A stretch of DNA of 20,035 bases from Candidatus Altiarchaeota archaeon (GTDB lineage Archaea > Altiarchaeota > Altiarchaeia > IMC4 > SCGC-AAA252-I15), in assembly GCA_028712125.1 (NCBI GenBank), contig JAQTQS010000024.1, positions 1 through 20,035 of the forward strand, given 5' to 3'. The position numbers and the translations under genes were made by a program. The notes beneath the pieces are model-generated. The model did no database searches and was not told the DNA's origin. It saw nothing but the letters and a program-made list of their open reading frames with translations. Below are positions 3,975-14,446 of this stretch, piece after piece (the stretch's first letter is position 1; the number at the start of each line of letters is the position of its first letter).

Positions 3975-6362
3975 CTATTTTTGGAATACCAGCTCGTACG
4001 CGTCCCCCTCGGCGCCGACAACCTTCAGCTCCTTGATTTTACCGGTGCCCTTTATGTCTTCGCTGATGTGCCTGACGTCCTCCAGCCTGCCCTTGCCAAT
4101 CCTGACTTCAAGCGCGCTTAGTTCAGCGCCAAGCGACATATTGTTCTCGGACTTGAACTTCCGGATGTCGGAGACTATGGACTTTGCCAGCATCCCAGAT
4201 TGCTCATAGTCCTTGACCGGATATTCTCCGGACGGGACGGGCCAGCTCTTCGCCGAGGCATAGCCGTCTTTCATCAGGTTGGCCCATATCTCGTCGGCTA
4301 TGTGCGGCATGTAGGGGGACATGAGACGCAGGAGCGTGCTCATTATCGCATGGAGGGTGTATTGGGCTGCCCGCCGGGATTCGGCCCCGTAGATTTCGGG
4401 CTTGTACAGCCGGTGCTTCACCATCTCCAGGTAGTCGTCTGCGAGGTCGTGCCATACGAAGCCGCGAATCTGGTCGAGGGGTATGTTGAACACGTAGTTG
4501 TCCAGGCTTTCAGTAGACTCGTCGACGATGCGGCTAAGCCTTCCGAGAATCCATTTGTCCACGGCACGAAGCTCTCCTTTGCTGCCGTCGTAGTCAGCAA
4601 GGTGCATCTCTATGAACCGTGATATGTTCCAGAACTTGGTGAGGAACTTCTGGCTGTGCTCGCACTCCTCCCAGCTGAACGGGTAATCGGAGCCAAGCGA
4701 GCCGCACGCGGCCCACTGCCTTAGCGCGTCTGCGGAATACTTAGAAAGCGGCTCTTCCGGGGCTATGATGTTGTTGAGCGATTTTGACATCTTCCTCCCG
4801 TCGGGGCCGGCCACCATCCCGTTTATCATCAGGTCCTTGAAGCAGGGCTTGCCTGTGAGCATCAAATCGCGGAAGATTGTGTAGAACGTCCATGTGCGGA
4901 TTATCTCATAGCCCTGTGGCCGGAGGGATACTGGATAGGTCTTAGCGAAGAATTCGTCGTCAACGCCCCATTGGGATACCCGGAGCGGGCTGACCGAGCT
5001 GTCCACCCAGCAGTCGCATACGTCCGTCTCCCCTTTCGCCTTTCCTCCGCATTTCGGGCATTTCCTTGTGCTGTCTCGCGGGTCTATGGGAAGCTCGCTT
5101 TCCTTCGCAGCGACGACCTCGCCGCAGGAGCATACCCAGAAGGGGATGGGCGTTCCGAACACGCGCTGGCGGGATATTATCCAGTCCCAGTCCATCGACT
5201 CGGTCCAGTCTACCAGGCGCTGGAGCATGTAGTCCGGATGCCATTTCATCGTGTTCGCGGCCTGTATGATGTCCTGCAGGTATTCCTTGACCTTGATGAA
5301 CCACTGCTCTGTCGGCAAAAGCTCGATAGGCGCCTTGCAGGAGCCGCGCTCGGTATGCGATGTGACCTTGTGGACAAGCTTCTCAACCTTCCGGACGACG
5401 CCAATATTCTCCAAGTCCGCGACCATCCTATCCCTGGCCTCTTTCACAGGCAGACCGGAGTAGACCCCGGCGGCCGCGGTCATCAGCCCGTCCCGGCCTA
5501 TGGCTTCGATGACCGGTAGATCGTATTGCTTCTGCCATGCGATGTCCTGCTCGTCGCCGAACGTGCAGAGGTATACGACGCCGGTGCCGAATTCCATGTC
5601 CACCGCGCTGTCGGAGAATATCGGGACGTCGCGGTTGAACAACGGAAGCTTTGCCTTCTTCCCGACGAAACGAGCGTACCTCCCGTCGTCAGGGTGGACG
5701 AAGACAGCAACGCACGCAGGCATCATCTCGGGCCGGGTGGTCGCTATCGTAAGCTTGTGGCCTTCGGCTTCGAGGTCTATGTGGTAGAGCTTTCCTTCCT
5801 TTTCGATGTAGCCGACTTCGGCTTTGGCAAGGGCTGTCCCGCAGTTCGGGCACCAGAGCACTGGATGTTTTTCCCGGTAGAGCATGCCTTTCTGGTAGAA
5901 TATTAGGAGTGATTTTTGCACCATGCGCTTGTAGTCGTCGTCCATCGTCCGGTACGAGTAGTCCCAGTCGGTGCTGTAGCCGAGCGACTCGAACTGGCTT
6001 TTCATACGGCTGACGGCGTTCTCAGTCCACTTGATGCACTCGGCGATGAACTTTTTCCGGTCTTCCTTCGGAACGCCCATATTCTTCTCAACCTGAAGCT
6101 CGGTCGGAAGCCCATGGCAGTCGAAACCCTGCGGCAGATAGACGTTAAAACCGCGCATACGCTTGTAGCGGGCGACTATGTCAATCCACACGTGGTTGTA
6201 CACGTGGCCCATGTGCAATGTCCCGGAAGTGAAAGGCGGCGGAGTGTCCAAACTGTAGACCGGCTTGTCAAGCTTCGGATTAAAGGAATTCGCCTTGTCC
6301 TCAAGCCACCTGGCCTGCCACTTCTTCTCAAGCGCATTCGCGGTATAGTTCTTGTCAAGCAT
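3975..6362 (-). CDS. valS: Valyl-tRNA synthetase (class I aaRS), 795 aa
   Basis: A HIGH-like motif (PPFTSGTLHMGHVYNH) and a KMSKS motif (GRKMSKSLNNII) are present. The editing-domain motif TTRPEMMPACVAVFVHPDD matches ValRS TTRPET...VAVHPED. A CPKCGG zinc knuckle is also present. Size and motif order fit archaeal ValRS. Confidence 0.9.
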   Translation of the reverse strand: MLDKNYTANALEKKWQARWLEDKANSFNPKLDKPVYSLDTPPPFTSGTLHMGHVYNHVWIDIVARYKRMRGFNVYLPQGFDCHGLPTELQVEKNMGVPKEDRKKFIAECIKWTENAVSRMKSQFESLGYSTDWDYSYRTMDDDYKRMVQKSLLIFYQKGMLYREKHPVLWCPNCGTALAKAEVGYIEKEGKLYHIDLEAEGHKLTIATTRPEMMPACVAVFVHPDDGRYARFVGKKAKLPLFNRDVPIFSDSAVDMEFGTGVVYLCTFGDEQDIAWQKQYDLPVIEAIGRDGLMTAAAGVYSGLPVKEARDRMVADLENIGVVRKVEKLVHKVTSHTERGSCKAPIELLPTEQWFIKVKEYLQDIIQAANTMKWHPDYMLQRLVDWTESMDWDWIISRQRVFGTPIPFWVCSCGEVVAAKESELPIDPRDSTRKCPKCGGKAKGETDVCDCWVDSSVSPLRVSQWGVDDEFFAKTYPVSLRPQGYEIIRTWTFYTIFRDLMLTGKPCFKDLMINGMVAGPDGRKMSKSLNNIIAPEEPLSKYSADALRQWAACGSLGSDYPFSWEECEHSQKFLTKFWNISRFIEMHLADYDGSKGELRAVDKWILGRLSRIVDESTESLDNYVFNIPLDQIRGFVWHDLADDYLEMVKHRLYKPEIYGAESRRAAQYTLHAIMSTLLRLMSPYMPHIADEIWANLMKDGYASAKSWPVPSGEYPVKDYEQSGMLAKSIVSDIRKFKSENNMSLGAELSALEVRIGKGRLEDVRHISEDIKGTGKIKELKVVGAEGDAYELVFQK

Positions 6363-7655: not shown

Positions 7656-7678
7656 CATTATAGGCGTATATTTTCTTG

Positions 7679-8698
7679 ATGGTTGAGGATATTTTACAAA
7701 AGCTTGTCGAAGGCATCGACTTGAGCCGCGAGGAGGCTGAATCGGCCATGGAGGGAATCATGGCAGGGACGCTTACAGACGCCCAGAAGGCCGGCTTCCT
7801 GACCGCTTTGAAGATGAAGGGGGAGACCGCTCTGGAGATTGCTTCCATGGCGCGCATAATGCGCAAGCATGCGGCGACTATAAAGCCGAAGGTCAAGGGA
7901 ATATTGGTTGACACCTGCGGTACCGGGGGCGACAGGAAGGGTACAATAAACGTTTCCACTGCAGCAATGTTCGTCGCGGCCGGAGCCGGAATTCCGATTG
8001 CGAAGCACGGCAACCGAGGGGTGAGCAGCGGATGCGGGAGCGCGGACGTGCTCGAAGCATTGGGCGTGAAGGTCGACCTCCCGCCTGAAAAGGTTATAAG
8101 GTGCATCGAGGACATGGGCATCGGCTTCATGCTCGCGCCGGTATTCCACGCGGCTATGAAGAACGTGATGCCGGTGAGAAAACAGCTCGGGTTCAGGACG
8201 GCTTTCAACATCCTCGGGCCGCTGACCAATCCCGCGGGGGCAGAGGGGCAGGTGCTCGGCGTCTTTGAAGGCGGCCTGACCAATAAGATGGCCGAAGTGT
8301 TGATGCTGCTTGGCGTAAGGCACGCGTTCGTAGTCCACGGGATGGAAGGATTGGACGAGATTTCTATTTCGGACGAGACGATGGTCTCGGAGCTTAGCGA
8401 CGGGGGAATAAGGAATTACACCATAAAGCCTGAAGACTTCGGATTCGAGAGGGCCGTCCTCGGCGAAATCAAGGGCGGCTCGAAAGAGGAGAACGCACGC
8501 TTACTGATGGGAATACTCGACGGCAGCATAACAGGGCCGAAAAGGGACATCGTGCTCTTGAACGCCGCGGCCGCAATAACCGCAGGCGGCAAGGCTAATG
8601 GCATGAAGGACGCGGTCAGGCTCGCTGAAAAGTCGATAGACAGCATGAGCGCGCTTGAAAAGCTGGAAAGCCTGACAGGGTATTGCGCAAAAATCTGA
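7679..8698 (+). CDS. trpD: Anthranilate phosphoribosyltransferase
   Basis: The motifs DTCGTGGDRKGTINVSTAAMFVAAGAG (GTGGD PRPP-binding) and AKHGNRGVSSGCGSADVLEALGV (KHGNR) are collinear with bacterial TrpD. The start is taken at ATG 7679 (the ORF-track start at 7676 is TTG). No other trp genes are in the window. Confidence 0.88.
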   Translation: MVEDILQKLVEGIDLSREEAESAMEGIMAGTLTDAQKAGFLTALKMKGETALEIASMARIMRKHAATIKPKVKGILVDTCGTGGDRKGTINVSTAAMFVAAGAGIPIAKHGNRGVSSGCGSADVLEALGVKVDLPPEKVIRCIEDMGIGFMLAPVFHAAMKNVMPVRKQLGFRTAFNILGPLTNPAGAEGQVLGVFEGGLTNKMAEVLMLLGVRHAFVVHGMEGLDEISISDETMVSELSDGGIRNYTIKPEDFGFERAVLGEIKGGSKEENARLLMGILDGSITGPKRDIVLLNAAAAITAGGKANGMKDAVRLAEKSIDSMSALEKLESLTGYCAKI

Positions 8699-8782: not shown

Positions 8783-8790
8783 TATTTAAA
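8783..8790 (+). promoter_or_regulatory. TATA-like box for the stomatin operon
   Basis: TATTTAAA is centred 26 bp upstream of ATG 8813. It predicts a leaderless transcript starting at the start codon. Confidence 0.45.
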
Positions 8791-8812
8791 ACCAGCGGGT
8801 AATACTTATATA

Positions 8813-9613
8813 ATGGCAGTCGAAGACGTTTGCGGGACGATTTTCTCCCTTGTGTTCATGATAATCCCGCTGATGGTCTTTTTCATACCCGGCCTGCTTT
8901 TCGTCCTCGGCATCCTTGGGACTTTCATAAAGGTCATAGCCCAGTACGAGCGCGGCATACTCTTCGCCTTCGGTCGTTTCGTGGACGTGCGAAAACCGGG
9001 CCTGAACATCATCATACCGTTCTACAACCGGATGGAAATCATCGACATGCGGATTAACACGCTCGACGTCCCGAAGCAGGAGGTCATGACCAAGGACAGC
9101 GTGCCGGTGAAAATAAACGCGGTGATATACTTCAGGGTGAAAGACCCGAAGAGAGCACTCCGGAACGTCGAGAACTACATGTACGCGGTCGCCAAATACG
9201 GGCAGACGGCGCTGCGAAACGTGGCGGGCGATGCGACACTGGACGCGCTCCTGAGCGAAAGAAAGGAGATAGCCGAAAAGCTTCGCCAGATAGTCGACGT
9301 CGCGACCGAACCTTGGGGGATAGACGTCACATACCTCGAGCTGCAGGACATAGAGCTTCCGGAAAGCCTCAAGCGCACGATGGCCAAGCAGGCCGAGGCC
9401 GAGCGGGAGAAGAGGTCAGTCATAATCGCCTCCGAGGGCGAGGTCATAGCCTCAGACAACCTTGTGAAAGCCGCGAACATCCTCTACAACGTGAAGGGCG
9501 CGCTGCACCTCCGGACGCTTAACGCCCTCAACGACATCAGCTCTGACGAGACCAACAAGGTCGTGTTCGTAGTCCCCTTGGAAGTATTGCGGGCGCTGGA
9601 GGAGGTGGACTAA
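8813..9613 (+). CDS. Stomatin-family SPFH/band-7 protein, membrane-anchored (266 aa)
   Basis: The N-terminal hydrophobic helix (IFSLVFMIIPLMVFFIPGLLFVLGILGTFI) is followed by the stomatin core IAQYERGILFAFGRF...PKQEVMTKDSVPVKINAVIYFRV...AKYGQTALRNV...LLSERKEIAEKLRQ...ELQDIELPESLKRTMAKQAEAEREKR...GALHLRTLNAL. Confidence 0.88.
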   Translation: MAVEDVCGTIFSLVFMIIPLMVFFIPGLLFVLGILGTFIKVIAQYERGILFAFGRFVDVRKPGLNIIIPFYNRMEIIDMRINTLDVPKQEVMTKDSVPVKINAVIYFRVKDPKRALRNVENYMYAVAKYGQTALRNVAGDATLDALLSERKEIAEKLRQIVDVATEPWGIDVTYLELQDIELPESLKRTMAKQAEAEREKRSVIIASEGEVIASDNLVKAANILYNVKGALHLRTLNALNDISSDETNKVVFVVPLEVLRALEEVD

Positions 9614-9615
9614 AG

Positions 9616-10359
9616 ATGGGCCTTTCATTATTCAAAATAATCAACCAGTACGAGAGAGGAGTATTATTCGCCTTCGGGGAGTATGAAGGCATGCGCGAGC
9701 CCGGCTTCAATTTCCTCATACCGATTTACCACGACCTTGTCATCGTCGACACGCGCATCAAGACGGTGGACATCCCGAAACAGGAGGTCATGACAAGGGA
9801 CAACGTGCCGGTCATGATAAACGCGGTCGTCTACTTCAGGATAGAGCAGCCGGAAAAGGCAGTAATTGAAGTCCGCGACGTAATCTACGCGGTCTCGAAA
9901 TACGCCCAGACAAGCCTGCGCAACGTCACAGGCCAGGCAACCCTTGACGAGCTATTGTCGGCCCGCCAGAAAATCGCAGAAAAACTCAGGGAGATAGTTG
10001 ACGTCGTAACACAGCAGTGGGGCGTGGACGTCACGGCCATCGAACTCCAGGACATCGAACTGCCTGAAGACCTGAAGAGGACGATGGCCAAACAGGCCGA
10101 GGCCGAGCGGGAGAAGCGTGCGGTAATCCTCAACAGCGAGGGAGAGGTCGGCGCTGCCGAGAACATTGCGAAGGCCGCCAAGAAATTGTACGCGGCCCCG
10201 GGAGCGCTGCACCTGCGGACTTTGCACACTATCAATGACATAAGCTCTGACAAATCGCAGACGGTGATTTACGCACTGCCGATAGAGGTTCTCAGGGCTG
10301 TTGAACGGCTGGTAGACCTGCTGGAGATAAAGACAGGGCAAAGGCAGACTAAAAAGTAG
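9616..10359 (+). CDS. Stomatin-family SPFH/band-7 paralog lacking an N-terminal TM helix (247 aa)
   Basis: It starts 2 nt after the stop of the first stomatin. It has the same domain order (NQYERGVLFAFGEY...PKQEVMTRDNVPVMINAVVYFRI...ELQDIELPEDLKRTMAKQAEAEREKR...GALHLRTL). There is no hydrophobic segment before the SPFH core. A 36-nt stretch (10081..10116) is identical to 9378..9413 at 35 of 36 positions. Confidence 0.88.
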   Translation: MGLSLFKIINQYERGVLFAFGEYEGMREPGFNFLIPIYHDLVIVDTRIKTVDIPKQEVMTRDNVPVMINAVVYFRIEQPEKAVIEVRDVIYAVSKYAQTSLRNVTGQATLDELLSARQKIAEKLREIVDVVTQQWGVDVTAIELQDIELPEDLKRTMAKQAEAEREKRAVILNSEGEVGAAENIAKAAKKLYAAPGALHLRTLHTINDISSDKSQTVIYALPIEVLRAVERLVDLLEIKTGQRQTKK

Positions 10360-10370
10360 AAGTCAAGAAA

Positions 10371-10703
10371 ATGGCTACTGAATTCCAGATGGCGACAATG
10401 GCCGGGACGATAACAGCGGCCTTTGCCATAATGATCGGCGGTTTCTGGGTTAAGGCGTCTAGCGGGGGCATAAAGATACCGGGAGTCAGGAAGGTCTTAG
10501 AGTGGGCGTTCGGCGGAAACCAGCCGGTAGCGCGCATCGCAATGTTCATCGGCTTCGCGCTCTCGGCGGTCGCGGTCACCTTCTTCTCGAAATGGATACG
10601 CTCCCAATTAGACCACGCCGGGATAGGCCTTGAACAGGAGGCTGTGGTTACAGTCATGATGGTCGTGGTACTGTACTTCCTGTACGACTTCTTCATCAAT
10701 TAG
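10371..10703 (+). CDS. Small (110 aa) 3-TM membrane protein of unknown function, third gene of the stomatin operon
   Basis: There are three hydrophobic segments (AGTITAAFAIMIGGFWV, AMFIGFALSAVAVTFF, VVTVMMVVVLYFLYDFF). It starts 11 nt after the stomatin-2 stop. I recognise no family; it does not resemble NfeD. Confidence 0.5.
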   Translation: MATEFQMATMAGTITAAFAIMIGGFWVKASSGGIKIPGVRKVLEWAFGGNQPVARIAMFIGFALSAVAVTFFSKWIRSQLDHAGIGLEQEAVVTVMMVVVLYFLYDFFIN

Positions 10704-11975: not shown

Positions 11976-12347
11976 TTATTTAGACTTTAGGAATTTTTCA
12001 TATTCCGTTATAGAGTCGAACACTATTGGAATGCCATCATAACCGCATTTCTGGCATGTGCAAATTCCCATTACCGGACCGTCTTTCTTAAGCCAGTATT
12101 TCGTATGCTTGAAGGGAGATACATCACGGCTTCCACACCTTGTACACGCCGTTATTTCATTTAAAACGGGCTTCTTCCTTGCAGATTCATCCTCTTTGGT
12201 GCATAGGCCGAGTATCACATCAAAAAATAAAAACCATAAAGAAAGGAAGAGTCCTGAGAATATCAATTTGGCCGCAGAATCCTCGGCACTATAAAGCCAT
12301 ATTATCGCAGCTATCAACAACCCGATTGAAGTAGTTACCATGCTCAT
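11976..12347 (-). CDS. Membrane protein with 2 TM helices and a C-terminal C4 zinc-ribbon (CxxC...CxxC), unknown function
   Basis: The hydrophobic helices are SIGLLIAAIIWLY and LIFSGLFLSLWFLFFDVILGL. The zinc ribbon is ACTRCGSRD...ICTCQKCGY. The start is uncertain. ATG 12347 is used here; the in-frame GTG at 12392 would overlap the Rpp30 stop by 10 nt, a coupling-type overlap. Confidence 0.5.
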   Translation of the reverse strand: MSMVTTSIGLLIAAIIWLYSAEDSAAKLIFSGLFLSLWFLFFDVILGLCTKEDESARKKPVLNEITACTRCGSRDVSPFKHTKYWLKKDGPVMGICTCQKCGYDGIPIVFDSITEYEKFLKSK

Positions 12348-12382
12348 CTTTTTTGGTTTTCCGGATTCAGAGCGAAGGAACT

Positions 12383-13138
12383 CTAGTACCACCCGTACTT
12401 TCTTTTCGGCTCTTTCGGCTTCTGGCCGCCCCAGTCCGTCACTTCAAGGCCTTTGAGGAGTATGTTCGGGTTTTTCCTGTCTTTCATCTTGGAGACGACT
12501 TTTCTCGGATAGCTTGAGACGACTTTGCTGGCGTCGTGCTCCGGTATGCCGATGAGCCGGCCGGCTGCCGCAAGGTCCAGCGGCGCGCGAATTCCCAGAG
12601 TGTCGCGGGCGCCGGAGGCGAGGACGATTGGCACATGGTATTTCAATGCGACCTTGACGTTCTGCCTTATGCGGCCTGCGAGCTGGGCGTACCACCTGCC
12701 CGTGCAGGATAAGAGTTGCGAGAAGTCTATGCCGAGCGCTGTCCCGCGTTCGGCCATCATGGCTGCCATGACGTGGTCGAGTCCCGCGTTCTTGCTGTCT
12801 ATATTGTCTTTTTCGCGGCCTTTTTCCGGGTGCAATAGGATGTCTACTTCGTGGCATTCGGCCGCTGCGCGGTTGGCATCGTCGCTTCCGCCGGCTGCGA
12901 TGATTATGTCGGCGGCGTCAAGGGCTTTTCTCGCGTTTTTCTCTATGTCCTGGGTTATTATTGCGCCGTTGTAGACTTCCATCCCGCCGATTTTCGGTGG
13001 AAGGCTTGGCATTTTAGCGCCGGTGTATTCCCGTGCCACGCAGACGCCTGTCCAGCCGCATGCGGCAAGCCTGTCCAATGCCTCGGTACCGGGCGTCCTG
13101 ACGCAGAGGTCGTAGCAGGCCCGATTTTTCTTATCCAT
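12383..13138 (-). CDS. rnp3: Ribonuclease P protein component 3 (Rpp30/Rnp3, TIM-barrel PHP-like) with a Lys-rich C-terminal tail
   Basis: ...DIIIAAGGSDDANRAAAE..VDILLHPEKGR...GLDHVMAAMMAERGTALGIDFSQLL...KYHVPIVLASGARDTLGIRAPLDLAAAGRLIGI...VVSSYPRKVV is collinear with Pyrococcus Rpp30 (VDAIISPW...[21 protein letters not shown]...[29 protein letters not shown]...ISMYPEII). The extra tail is KMKDRKNPNILLKG...KPKEPKRKYGWY. Confidence 0.75.
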   Translation of the reverse strand: MDKKNRACYDLCVRTPGTEALDRLAACGWTGVCVAREYTGAKMPSLPPKIGGMEVYNGAIITQDIEKNARKALDAADIIIAAGGSDDANRAAAECHEVDILLHPEKGREKDNIDSKNAGLDHVMAAMMAERGTALGIDFSQLLSCTGRWYAQLAGRIRQNVKVALKYHVPIVLASGARDTLGIRAPLDLAAAGRLIGIPEHDASKVVSSYPRKVVSKMKDRKNPNILLKGLEVTDWGGQKPKEPKRKYGWY

Positions 13139-13603: not shown

Positions 13604-14446
13604 CTACGGTTCGGTGCTTGTTTCCTCGTTTGCATACGTGGAAATGTCGAACAGCATGTTGCTTCCCCCGCCGTTGACCATCACCTTCGGCAGGTGGCCG
13701 TCCCATTTCTCGGCAATCGTCAGCGGAATCAGCTTCTCGTTCTGCTTCAATGCCTCGGCACGTATGGATATCGCCTCAGCTTCGGCCTTTGCACGGATTA
13801 CCGTCTGGTTGGCCTCGACCCTTATCCTCTCGAGGTCCCGGTCGGCCTTGAGCTTAAGCTGCTCGGCCGTGACCTTCGCCTCTATCGCGTCGTTGAAGGA
13901 CCTGCTGAACTGGAAGTTCGTGATTGACATCGTCTCCACGAGGATGTAGCGCGGGGCCAGCTTTTGGCTGATGGACTCCCTTATCTTCACGGCGACGTCA
14001 TCCCTCTTGGTTATCAGTTCTTCGGCCGTGAATTGCGCCGTGATTGCCTTCACGCTCTCCTTGATGGCGGGGTCTATGACAGTTAATTCATAGCCGGGGC
14101 CTATCTCCTGGAACACCCTCTGGGCGGCGTCGGGCGAGATGTGGTAGTTTAACGCGATTGCCGTGTTCACAATCTGCATGTCCTTCGAGCTTGCTTCGGT
14201 CGTGTCCTCCATCTTCTGCGTCTTGATGTTGATGATGACGACGGACTGCACCAGCGGCATCTTAACGTGTATCCCCTCGGTGTAGGAGTACTGCGCGACT
14301 TCGCCGAACGTCATCAAAACGCCCCTCTCCCCGGGGCCGACGATGAAGTAACAGTTCCTCAACAGGGTTACGAATATTACCGCGGCTATTAATCCTATCA
14401 ATAGTCTTAATGCCGGGCTCATTGGTTCGTCAAATTTTGCTGTCAT
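13604..14446 (-). CDS. Prohibitin/HflC-like SPFH (band 7) membrane protein, 280 aa
   Basis: An N-terminal TM helix (LRLLIGLIAAVIFVTLL) is followed by an SPFH core (FIVGPGERGVLMTFGEV...IKTQKMEDTTEASSKDMQIV...AQFTAEELITKRDDV) and a C-terminal coiled coil (AEQLKLKADRDLERIRVEANQTVIRAKAEAEAISIRAEALKQNEK). Confidence 0.8.
   Translation of the reverse strand: MTAKFDEPMSPALRLLIGLIAAVIFVTLLRNCYFIVGPGERGVLMTFGEVAQYSYTEGIHVKMPLVQSVVIINIKTQKMEDTTEASSKDMQIVNTAIALNYHISPDAAQRVFQEIGPGYELTVIDPAIKESVKAITAQFTAEELITKRDDVAVKIRESISQKLAPRYILVETMSITNFQFSRSFNDAIEAKVTAEQLKLKADRDLERIRVEANQTVIRAKAEAEAISIRAEALKQNEKLIPLTIAEKWDGHLPKVMVNGGGSNMLFDISTYANEETSTEP

What the first reader, a model, noticed from the sequence alone, without database searches (positions are those of the whole stretch)
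8813..10703. A stomatin operon with a membrane-anchored and a TM-less paralog plus a small 3-TM protein, and no NfeD partner
Two stomatin genes are separated by 2 nt. The first has the canonical N-terminal hairpin/TM anchor. The second starts directly at the SPFH core (MGLSLFKIINQYERG...) and lacks any hydrophobic anchor. The two retain a 36-nt patch identical at 35 of 36 positions (9378..9413 and 10081..10116), pointing to gene conversion or recent constraint. The third gene encodes a 110-aa 3-TM protein of unknown family. In prokaryotes stomatin is almost always encoded with an NfeD (STOPP) partner, and none is present here. This suggests a hetero-oligomeric stomatin ring or cage in which only one subunit type is membrane-inserted, with a novel small membrane partner.
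Basis: partly seen in the sequence, partly recalled or inferred. Interest (0 to 1): 0.65.

Follow-up and report, generated by a model that had tools for sequence, protein, structure and literature searches.

The report
Paired stomatin genes, one without anchor
An uncultured archaeal group (Altiarchaeota) carries two back-to-back stomatin genes, one with a membrane anchor and one that lost it, and they most likely build one mixed membrane-scaffold ring; the small membrane gene next to them is a fast-changing local add-on, not a core partner.

Summary
The window is a whole 20-kb contig of a Candidatus Altiarchaeota genome assembled from a metagenome. It carries stomatin A (8813-9613, hydrophobic N-terminus), stomatin B (9616-10359, no hydrophobic segment) and a 110-aa three-helix membrane gene C (10371-10703). 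No NfeD gene is present.

The A-then-B pair is not a local oddity. It recurs in all 10 related loci that hold both genes. The stop/start junction is conserved, and A's last codons (EEVD) form the ribosome-binding site for B. Anchor-less B proteins form one clade, sister to the anchored A clade.

Losses are complementary: B lost the anchor but kept the Lys-rich C-tail, and A kept the anchor but lost the tail. The few clade-discriminating residues lie in the cap region, where the human stomatin 16-mer alternates two conformers. The 35/36-nt patch is real, and it belongs to recurrent local gene conversion seen across nine genomes.

Best reading: a hard-wired alternating A/B stomatin ring anchored by A only. 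This is inferred, not shown.

C is a real but fast-evolving gene confined to one sub-lineage. Elsewhere its place is taken by TatA, by an unrelated gene, or by nothing. "Almost always NfeD" is overstated. Verdict: a new variant of a known kind, of moderate interest.

The parts
8783..8791 (+). TATA-like box (TATTTAAAA) 22-30 nt upstream of A's ATG. It is a putative archaeal promoter, implying a leaderless or very short-leader transcript.
   Evidence: Read from the sequence. Similar AT-rich boxes lie 22-47 nt upstream of A in 7 related loci. This is inference only; no promoter model for archaea was run.
8813..9613 (+). Stomatin A: the membrane-anchored SPFH/stomatin paralog, 266 aa. Its C-terminus is truncated and acidic (...LRALEEVD*).
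   Evidence: Pfam Band_7 at E 6.8e-42. The AlphaFold2 model (pLDDT 78) matches human stomatin chains at E 2e-24, and also PH1511 and QmcA. 37 of the 46 anchored homologs listed end in EEVD, and most of the rest in a near variant.
8819..8926 (+). N-terminal hydrophobic anchor of A (residues 3-38).
   Evidence: Kyte-Doolittle mean up to 2.77. AlphaFold2 models it as one helix, residues 3-38. It is conserved in the A clade.
9598..9609 (+). Shine-Dalgarno sequence for B (GGAGGAGGTGGA), embedded in A's last codons. The core GGAGGTG ends 8 nt before B's ATG.
   Evidence: In 7 of 9 loci the junction reads GGAGGAGGTGGACTA(A/G), then 0-4 nt, then ATG; the other two loci have near variants.
9616..10359 (+). 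Stomatin B: the anchor-less SPFH/stomatin paralog, 247 aa. It starts 10 residues before the QYERG motif.
   Evidence: Pfam Band_7 at E 1.8e-42. No hydrophobic segment. Residues 6-229 align to human stomatin through the C-terminal beta-strand motif (E 8e-50), and B also matches PH1511 at 2.6e-52. 52 homolog clusters share the same short N-terminus.
9101..9124 (+). Gene-conversion hot spot 1 in A (VPVKINAV). Its counterpart in B is 9805-9828.
   Evidence: Over the wider tested interval 9062-9133, same-genome A-B codon identity is 0.76, against 0.57 for mismatched genome pairings across 9 genomes. None of 7362 derangements reached the observed value.
9374..9415 (+). Gene-conversion hot spot 2 in A (RTMAKQAEAEREKR, the start of the wall helix). 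Its counterpart in B is 10078-10119. It contains the 35/36 patch, A 9377-9412 versus B 10081-10116.
   Evidence: Over the wider tested interval 9338-9421, same-genome codon identity is 0.71 against 0.45 for mismatched pairings. Ala and Arg codon choices are shared within a genome but differ between genomes.
10318..10356 (+). Lys-rich C-terminal tail of B (LLEIKTGQRQTKK), which A lacks.
   Evidence: B tails have a median of 25.5 residues after the xP(I/L)E motif, against 13 in A. Outgroup stomatins also end in Lys-rich tails.
10371..10703 (+). Gene C: a 110-aa three-helix membrane protein from a tiny, fast-evolving family with no known relatives.
   Evidence: No Pfam, NCBIfam or PDB sequence match, and no PDB fold match. 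Only 5 relatives were found among 1.84 billion representative proteins. dN/dS is 0.14 against its closest ortholog. The upstream ATG and the MATEFQ peptide are conserved in L001.

Best explanation
The locus is a two-gene stomatin operon conserved across Altiarchaeota. It arose by one ancient tandem duplication followed by complementary loss. Paralog A kept the N-terminal membrane anchor but lost the basic C-terminal tail. Paralog B lost the anchor but kept the tail.

The two genes are translationally coupled, because A's last codons are B's ribosome-binding site. They therefore most likely co-assemble into one alternating A-B-A-B stomatin ring, a domed cage on the cytoplasmic face of the membrane, anchored only through A. 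Their different C-termini would build the two alternating halves of the cap. That would make it a genetically fixed version of the two alternating conformers seen in the human stomatin 16-mer.

Short-tract gene conversion keeps two segments of the genes nearly identical in each genome: a strand of the SPFH domain and the start of the wall helix. The ring works without an adjacent NfeD partner. The downstream 3-TM gene C is a lineage-specific accessory or possible client, not a core subunit.

Shown: gene structure, conservation, coupling signal, phylogeny, complementary loss, conversion. Inferred: physical co-assembly, alternation, topology, any role of C.
For: 1. A-then-B tandem. The pair, with a 0-4 nt gap, is present in all 10 related loci that hold both genes: L003, L004, L005, L006, L011, L091, L092, L093, L094 and the window. 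By my reading of the table, at least 24 further B-type clusters share a contig length with an A-type cluster.
2. Junction. GGAGGAGGTGGACTAR plus ATG recurs exactly in 7 of the 9 loci compared and as near variants in the other two.
3. Phylogeny. In a neighbour-joining tree (no bootstrap), anchor-less sequences form one clade beside the anchored Altiarchaeota clade. In 79 other stomatin loci, none of the 77 gene calls not cut by a contig end lacks an anchor.
4. Selection on B. dN/dS is 0.08. B keeps every ring-building element. It aligns end to end with human stomatin, including the beta-barrel strand. The salt-bridge residues R205, E227, R251 and E262 (as Asp) are conserved in both clades.
5. 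Complementary C-tails.
6. Discriminating positions. Only six positions separate the A and B clades. All lie in the distal wall helix, cap helix, barrel strand and tail. They include F versus Y in the strand and a charge swap, E264 in A versus R231 in B. This is the region where human stomatin alternates two conformers. The same paper notes that FLOT1/2, Erlin1/2 and PHB1/2 are paralog pairs forming obligate hetero-oligomers (PMC12344292).
7. Concerted evolution. At 74 invariant codon columns, same-genome A-B codon identity is 0.556 against 0.428 for mismatched pairings (0 of 7389 derangements reach it). Orthologs score 0.43-0.44. Codon usage alone predicts a difference of only 0.04.
Against: There is no direct evidence of physical interaction. 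No multimer modelling was possible with the tools. The charge-swap and conformer arguments rest on analogy with a human homo-oligomer. Gene conversion needs only proximity, not co-assembly. Tandem paralogs can also act separately. The tree is neighbour-joining without support values. NfeD could be encoded elsewhere in these genomes: only about 149 kb around the loci was examined, and the local HMMs were built from long-form NfeD1b only.
Confidence: 0.6

Rival explanations
1. B assembles on its own into a soluble or peripherally attached homo-oligomer with a job separate from A. The precedents would be the TM-less flotillins, the vault, or the predicted-soluble prokaryotic SPFH8/9 families. On this view the tandem arrangement is only a legacy of the duplication.
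For: SPFH assemblies without TM segments exist: FLOT1/2 and the vault (PMC12624060), and SPFH8/9, which were predicted soluble (PMC2636767). B retains every oligomerisation element.
Against: The stop/start coupling signal is conserved in all loci. The losses are complementary rather than independent. Discriminating residues are confined to the cap and include a charge swap. No locus with B apart from A was seen.
Confidence: 0.17
2. B is a sub-stoichiometric regulator of A rings, for example a subunit that limits ring size, opens the cage or caps growing arcs, rather than an equal alternating partner.
For: SPFH cages occur in open and closed forms and in variable stoichiometries (abstracts listed). 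B lacks the anchor, which might favour exchange on and off the ring.
Against: A strong Shine-Dalgarno sequence with 0-4 nt coupling suggests similar synthesis rates. B is as conserved as A.
Confidence: 0.1
3. Gene C is a degenerate NfeD: the three-helix membrane part of a short NfeD that has lost its OB-fold domain. On this view the operon is a classical stomatin-NfeD operon in disguise.
For: Short NfeD proteins are described as three N-terminal hydrophobic stretches plus a soluble beta domain (PMC2636767). C has three hydrophobic helices and sits next to a stomatin gene.
Against: Pfam NfeD_membrane (PF24961) and NfeD (PF01957) hit none of the six family members, even at E up to 1. hhalign of the C family against NfeD1b membrane domains gives a probability of 0.2%. 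There is no fold match in the PDB, which holds the QmcA-YbbJ complex. C is missing from most Altiarchaeota A/B loci.
Confidence: 0.06
4. B's lack of an anchor is an annotation or assembly artefact, or B is a decaying pseudogene.
For: None found.
Against: There is no start codon and no hydrophobic stretch in B's frame upstream. The same short N-terminus occurs in 52 independent clusters from many samples. dN/dS is 0.08. The start context is conserved.
Confidence: 0.01

Closest known systems
Prokaryotic stomatin (p-stomatin / SPFH1 / 'slipin'): Pyrococcus horikoshii PH1511 and E. coli QmcA
   Same: A and B share the domain order SPFH, wall helix, cap helix and C-terminal hydrophobic strand. B matches PH1511 at E 2.6e-52, and the A model is about 50% identical to it. 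QmcA gives E 1.3e-28. A has the usual N-terminal anchor.
   Different: PH1511 and QmcA are single genes paired with NfeD proteins (PH1510, YbbJ), and QmcA forms a homo-oligomer (26 chains in 8z5g). Here there are two specialised paralogs, one of them without an anchor, and no NfeD nearby.
Human stomatin 16-mer (PDB 9oh9, 9z7u; PMC12344292)
   Same: It is the best structural and full-length sequence match (38-39% identity). That ring alternates two conformers which differ only after the C-terminal beta-strand. This is the region where A and B differ consistently.
   Different: In the human ring a single sequence adopts both conformers, and every subunit has the hydrophobic hairpin. Here the alternation would be encoded by two genes, and only one of them carries an anchor.
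Obligate heteromeric SPFH pairs: HflK/HflC, PHB1/PHB2, FLOT1/FLOT2, Erlin1/Erlin2
   Same: The logic is the same: two paralogs, co-encoded or co-expressed, alternating in one ring or cage.
   Different: These are different SPFH subfamilies. A and B score 69-71 bits against the HflK model, whose cut-off is 159. In those pairs both partners share the same mode of membrane attachment: both have a TM segment, or both are peripheral. Here the attachment is asymmetric.
Tandem SPFH1 duplications with NfeD (NfeD1a-SPFH1a.1-SPFH1a.2, e.g. Shewanella SO4130/SO4129/SO4128; PMC2636767)
   Same: Two stomatin-type genes sit in one operon after a duplication.
   Different: Those operons keep an NfeD gene. 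Whether one copy there lacks the anchor was not checked here. An independent archaeal tandem seen here (L018) has anchors on both copies.
Short NfeD proteins (YbbJ, PH0471, YuaF), considered for gene C
   Same: They are small membrane proteins with three hydrophobic stretches, encoded next to an SPFH gene.
   Different: C has no OB-fold domain and no detectable sequence, profile or fold similarity to NfeD.

Membership tests
Stomatin / SPFH1 (p-stomatin, slipin) | SPFH (Band 7) domain | tested here: met
   PF01145 hits A at E 6.8e-42 and B at E 1.8e-42, far above the 23.6-bit cut-off.
Stomatin / SPFH1 (p-stomatin, slipin) | Co-linear stomatin architecture through the wall helix, cap helix and the C-terminal hydrophobic strand with Pro (human STIVFPLPID) | tested here: met
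   B residues 6-229 align to human stomatin, including QTVIYALPIEVL against STIVFPLPIDML. The A model matches human stomatin chains at E 2e-24.
Stomatin / SPFH1 (p-stomatin, slipin) | N-terminal hydrophobic anchor (TM segment or hairpin) | tested here: not met
   Met for A (residues 3-38). Not met for B, whose maximum hydropathy is 1.17. The short start is conserved in 52 clusters.
Stomatin / SPFH1 (p-stomatin, slipin) | Operon partnership with NfeD (frequent, not universal: 229 of 353 in PMC2636767) | tested here: not met
   No PF01957, PF24961 or PF25145 hit in the window ORFs. The gene lists of 9 related loci show none either. A local NfeD1b HMM search of 149 kb of six-frame translation gave a best E of 0.8. 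The rest of the genome was not visible.
Stomatin / SPFH1 (p-stomatin, slipin) | Assembly into a ring or cage oligomer | not testable with these tools
   Only monomer prediction was available. The ring salt-bridge residues R205, E227, R251 and E262 (as Asp) are conserved in both clades.
Obligate heteromeric SPFH paralog pair (as a working type: HflK/C, PHB1/2, FLOT1/2, Erlin1/2) | Two distinct paralog lineages, each conserved, co-encoded or co-expressed | tested here: met
   Two sister clades appear in the tree. The tandem is found in all 10 loci holding both genes. The Shine-Dalgarno and stop/start junction is conserved.
Obligate heteromeric SPFH paralog pair (as a working type: HflK/C, PHB1/2, FLOT1/2, Erlin1/2) | Physical alternation of the two subunits in one ring | not testable with these tools
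   Only indirect pointers: complementary domain loss and discriminating residues confined to the cap, including an E/R swap.
HflK / HflC (by descent) | Score above the NCBIfam equivalog cut-off | tested here: not met
   A scores 68.8 bits and B 70.5 bits against TIGR01933 hflK, whose cut-off is 159.4. Scores against the hflC model are lower still.
NfeD (candidate family for gene C) | C-terminal OB-fold partner-binding domain (PF01957) | tested here: not met
   No hit for any of the six C-family members. The AlphaFold2 model is all-helical with no soluble domain.
NfeD (candidate family for gene C) | NfeD integral membrane domain (PF24961) | tested here: not met
   No hit at E up to 1. hhalign against 20 NfeD1b membrane domains gives a probability of 0.2%. 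Short-form NfeD1a was not tested directly.
TatA/E (candidate family for gene C) | PF02416: a TM helix, the FG-x-x-K-L-P hinge and an amphipathic helix | tested here: inconclusive
   No Pfam hit. hhalign aligns GGIKIPGVRKVL of C with GGKKLPELARSL of the Altiarchaeota TatA, but at a probability of only 7%. A true TatA occupies the same position in L004, L011 and L094.

The most novel reading that the evidence does not exclude
Altiarchaeota would have the first heteromeric pair within the stomatin subfamily proper. The alternating two-conformer cap, which the human stomatin homo-16-mer achieves with one sequence, would here be hard-wired into two genes, and only every second subunit would be membrane-anchored. 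In addition, the position after B repeatedly recruits small membrane proteins (TatA in one sub-lineage, the orphan 3-TM family here). These could be clients or cargo that the half-anchored cage encloses or regulates, for example controlling TatA oligomerisation.
Probability: 0.2. Interest if true: 0.7.

Novelty: new variant of a known kind. Interest (0 to 1): 0.42.

Why it matters
SPFH cages (stomatin, prohibitin, flotillin, HflK/C, erlin) have recently been solved, and one open question is why some use paralog pairs while stomatin proper uses a single sequence in two alternating conformers. A natural stomatin pair whose differences fall in the alternating cap region, and which has an anchor on only one partner, would be a compact and tractable system. 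It could test how cap symmetry-breaking is encoded, how many anchors a cage needs, and whether NfeD is dispensable. It also gives a clean example of subfunctionalisation by complementary domain loss combined with patchy gene conversion. The practical significance is modest, because the organisms are uncultured and the function remains inferred.

Tried and rejected
- C as NfeD. Pfam at E up to 1, local HMMs and hhalign (probability 0.2%) were all negative, and there was no PDB fold match.
- C as a TatA derivative. The idea came from TatA occupying the same position in sister lineages and from a GG-x-K-(I/L)-P motif. hhalign gave only 7% and Pfam was negative. It is kept as a lead only.
- The 126-aa gene in L092 as a C homolog. 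hhalign probability 0.2%.
- Genome-collection scan with B. It was swamped by generic stomatin motifs. Only one Altiarchaeota-like locus (L011) was returned. The other 79 loci were reused as a background sample.
- Metagenome scan with the C-family alignment.
- AlphaFold database fold library. Unavailable.
- An upstream start for B. None exists.
- Codon usage as the sole cause of the identical patch. It predicts a within-versus-between difference of only 0.04, against an observed 0.13 overall and 0.19-0.26 in the hot spots.
- tRNA and Rfam scans of the window. Nothing found.
- Literature search for Altiarchaeota together with stomatin or SPFH. Nothing found.
Full report
WHAT IS THERE

The window is an entire 20,035-nt contig of a Candidatus Altiarchaeota metagenome-assembled genome. 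The 110-aa gene is NCBI locus tag PHG85_03845. The genes run in this order:
- trpD, 7676-8698 (+)
- stomatin A, 8813-9613 (+)
- stomatin B, 9616-10359 (+)
- gene C, 10371-10703 (+)
- purE (-), dapB (+) and RNase P p30 (-)
- further on, a third and more distant SPFH gene, 13604-14446 (-)

A and B both carry the Band_7/SPFH domain (E about 1e-42). They are 62% identical in protein and 67% in DNA. A has a strongly hydrophobic N-terminus and B has none. C has three hydrophobic segments. AlphaFold2 models it as three long helices plus a short one, at pLDDT 72.

The 35/36-nt patch is real but lies at A 9377-9412 versus B 10081-10116. It encodes TMAKQAEAEREK. Given the protein sequences and the window's codon usage, such a patch has P = 0.0026.

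The stop 2 nt before B is A's stop and is out of frame with B. In B's own frame there are 24 sense codons upstream with no start codon and no hydrophobic stretch. No hidden anchor is therefore possible.

THE PAIR IS ANCIENT AND CONSERVED

A search with B returned about 50 clusters of 239-265 aa that all start 7-13 residues before QYE(R/K)G. The source names attached to them are nearly all Altiarchaeota or Altiarchaeales. It also returned a matching set of 250-266-aa anchored proteins.

In every related locus that holds both genes, the order is A then B with a 0-4 nt gap. These loci are L003, L004, L005, L006, L011, L091, L092, L093 and L094. By my reading of the table, at least 24 further B clusters share a contig length with an A cluster.

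The junction is nearly invariant at the DNA level: GGAGGAGGTGGACTA(A/G), then 0-4 nt, then ATG. A's final codons (Glu-Glu-Val-Asp-stop) therefore double as a strong Shine-Dalgarno sequence for B. This is a classic translational-coupling layout.

In a neighbour-joining tree (no bootstrap), the anchor-less proteins form one clade beside the anchored Altiarchaeota clade. Anchored stomatins from DPANN archaea, CPR bacteria and others fall outside. The few apparently anchor-less sequences inside the A clade are short gene calls. For example, P0082 is L005's A gene, whose ORF extends 25 codons further upstream.

Among 79 stomatin loci from other organisms, none of the 77 gene calls not cut by a contig end lacks the anchor. 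The two that do (L043, L069) lie at contig ends. One independent archaeal tandem (L018) has anchors on both copies.

B is under strong purifying selection, with dN/dS of 0.08.

COMPLEMENTARY LOSS AND WHERE A AND B DIFFER

37 of the 46 A-type proteins listed end in ...LRA(V/L)EEVD, and most of the rest end in a near variant. Their tail is 13 residues after the conserved xP(L/I)E motif. B-type proteins continue as ...ER(L/I)GDLLE followed by a Lys-rich tail, with a median of 25.5 residues. Outgroup stomatins also end in Lys-rich tails, so the A truncation is the derived state. B thus lost the N-terminal anchor, and A lost the C-terminal tail.

Only six alignment positions are conserved at 80% or more within each clade yet differ between the clades. 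All six lie from the distal wall helix to the C-terminus. They include F (A) versus Y (B) in the barrel strand, and Glu264 (A) versus Arg231 (B) just after it.

The residues that form inter-subunit salt bridges in human stomatin (R205, E227, R251, and E262 as Asp) are conserved in both clades. B aligns end to end with human stomatin chains from the 16-mer structures (E about 1e-49), with PH1511 (2.6e-52) and with QmcA. The A model (pLDDT 78) matches the same set.

The human stomatin paper reports that the homo-16-mer consists of two alternating conformers that diverge only after the C-terminal beta-strand. It remarks that stomatin, unlike FLOT1/2, Erlin1/2 and PHB1/2, has no pairing partner (PMC12344292). 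The Altiarchaeota A/B differences fall in exactly that region.

GENE CONVERSION

I aligned the A and B codons from nine genomes and kept the 74 columns whose amino acid is invariant and degenerate.
- A and B from the same genome share the codon in 55.6% of cases.
- Mismatched genome pairings share it in 42.8% (sd 1.6%). None of 7389 derangements reached the observed value.
- Orthologs between genomes share it in 43-44%.
- Genome-specific codon usage predicts a difference of only about 4 points.

The excess concentrates in two stretches. Around 9101-9124 (VPVxINAV) the values are 0.76 against 0.57. Around 9374-9415 (RTMAKQAEAEREKR) they are 0.71 against 0.45. Elsewhere the excess is small, 0.45 against 0.39.

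Within the patch, the choice among Ala and Arg codons is shared by A and B of one genome but differs between genomes. In L005 the patch is 36/36 identical. One caveat: the two stretches were delimited after looking at six genomes. The signal then held in the three genomes added later.

NfeD

No NfeD model hits any window ORF. None appears in the Pfam lists of nine related loci with up to 10 kb of flank. HMMs built from 20 NfeD1b proteins found next to other stomatins give a best E of 0.8 on 149 kb of six-frame translation from 13 Altiarchaeota loci.

The absence is not unusual. A published survey found NfeD beside 229 of 353 SPFH1 genes (PMC2636767). In my background sample, only 20 of 79 loci have an adjacent NfeD1b. 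Most of the nearest relatives of A and B (CPR, DPANN, Anaerolineales) have none. Whether NfeD lies elsewhere in these genomes could not be checked.

GENE C

An exhaustive profile search of 1.84 billion representative proteins found only five relatives. Four of them sit directly after B and before purE and dapB in syntenic loci L001, L006, L007 and L008. The fifth, at E 9e-4, follows a VirB4/TraC-like ATPase and is a doubtful relative.

C is a real gene. Against L001 its dN/dS is 0.14, and the upstream ATG and MATEFQ peptide are conserved there. However, it diverges far faster than its neighbours: it is 29-39% identical where B and purE are 81-87%, with dN of 0.65-0.73 against 0.10-0.14. In L006 and L008 it is separated from B by 50-58 nt of AT-rich spacer that looks like a promoter of its own.

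In other loci the position after B holds something else:
- L003 (B 84% identical): convergent small genes.
- L004, L011, L094: a bona fide 46-aa TatA (PF02416, E 1e-14).
- L092: an unrelated 126-aa membrane ORF.
- L005, L091, L093: nothing co-directional.

C has no Pfam, NCBIfam, PDB sequence or PDB fold match. It shows no profile similarity to NfeD membrane domains (0.2%) and only a faint, non-significant resemblance to the TatA hinge (7%). C is therefore a lineage-specific accessory, not a defining third subunit.

HOW IT MOST LIKELY WORKS

Shown: a phylum-wide, translationally coupled A/B operon; a single origin of the anchor-less paralog; complementary terminal losses; discriminating residues confined to the cap; recurrent conversion; and no nearby NfeD.

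Inferred (confidence about 0.6): A and B co-assemble in a 1:1 alternating stomatin ring on the cytoplasmic face of the membrane. B has no signal or anchor. A's acidic N-terminus and the Lys/Arg residues after its helix fit an N-out, domain-in orientation. A would supply the membrane anchors, and the two tail types would build the alternating cap.

Rivals:
- B forms a separate soluble or peripheral oligomer (about 0.17).
- B is a sub-stoichiometric regulator of A rings (about 0.10).
- C is a degenerate NfeD (about 0.06).
- The lack of an anchor is an artefact or B is a pseudogene (about 0.01; rejected).

VERDICT

This is a new variant of a known kind: a heteromeric SPFH pair, but within stomatin proper, with asymmetric anchoring and no adjacent NfeD. 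Interest is moderate at 0.42. It is a tidy evolutionary and structural case that bears on the recently described alternating-conformer cap of stomatin. It remains entirely inferential, in uncultured organisms, and it is conceptually close to HflK/C, PHB1/2 and FLOT1/2.

Noticed in passing
window 13604-14446 (-): A third SPFH gene: 280 aa, Band_7 at E 2.4e-32, with an N-terminal TM segment and a prohibitin/HflC-like sequence. It is too distant from A and B to be found by phmmer at 1e-10. It lies between an RNase P-associated 'RNA_binding' gene and metG. In the related locus L008 no gene sits between the RNA_binding gene and the next long gene, which I presume is metG. It has no NfeD neighbour either.
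   Followed up: partly
L004 5743-5877, L011 about 5666-5806, L094 6746-6886: In a sister sub-lineage of Altiarchaeota, a minimal 46-aa TatA/E gene (PF02416, E 1e-14) follows the anchor-less stomatin B by only a few nucleotides. It occupies the position that gene C holds in the window.
   Followed up: partly
L092 10782-11162: An unrelated 126-aa ORF with about three hydrophobic segments overlaps the end of B. It has no Pfam hit and no similarity to the C family. It sits in the same position, so small membrane genes recur there.
   Followed up: partly
window 10371-10703; the C-family alignment: After the first helix, the C family has an invariant Gly and Pro in the motif G-G-x-(K/R)-(I/L)-P. This resembles the TatA hinge FGGKKLP, but the similarity is not statistically supported (hhalign 7%).
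   Followed up: yes
L010 748-4321: The weakest C-family hit (P0127, E 9e-4) lies directly after a 1032-aa VirB4/TraC-like ATPase with a PrgI-like N-terminus. This looks like a conjugation or mobile-element context. It may be an unrelated small membrane protein.
   Followed up: no
L024, L026, L028, L030, L031, L035, L039, L045, L048, L051, L057 (downstream of the stomatin match): In Anaerolineales and several other bacterial loci, and in Promethearchaeota loci, the stomatin gene is followed within about 26 nt by a 221-241-aa ORF. The five I scanned (L026, L031, L048, L051, L057) are OMP-decarboxylase-family genes (PF00215). It is an unexplained adjacency that recurs across bacterial and archaeal loci.
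   Followed up: partly
L003 5765-6326 (-) and L007 1321-1578 (+): Where C is missing (L003), two small convergent genes of 101 and about 85-90 aa take its place. The second has a close homolog (MENVRVNVLLP...) just after C in L007. Together they look like a small mobile two-gene module. Neither has a Pfam hit on record.
   Followed up: no
window 11976-12392 (-): A 138-aa ORF with a hydrophobic N-terminal part and C-terminal Cys pairs, giving a weak Elf1-like zinc-ribbon hit. It sits where the related loci L007 and L008 encode a response regulator.
   Followed up: no
window 10349-10699 (-): A 116-aa antisense ORF mirrors gene C almost exactly. It is most likely spurious, because the conservation pattern and dN/dS support the + strand gene.
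   Followed up: partly
L018 9938-11542: An independent tandem stomatin duplication in another archaeon (isolate SMBSF43). Both copies keep N-terminal anchors, and the genes abut with no gap.
   Followed up: partly
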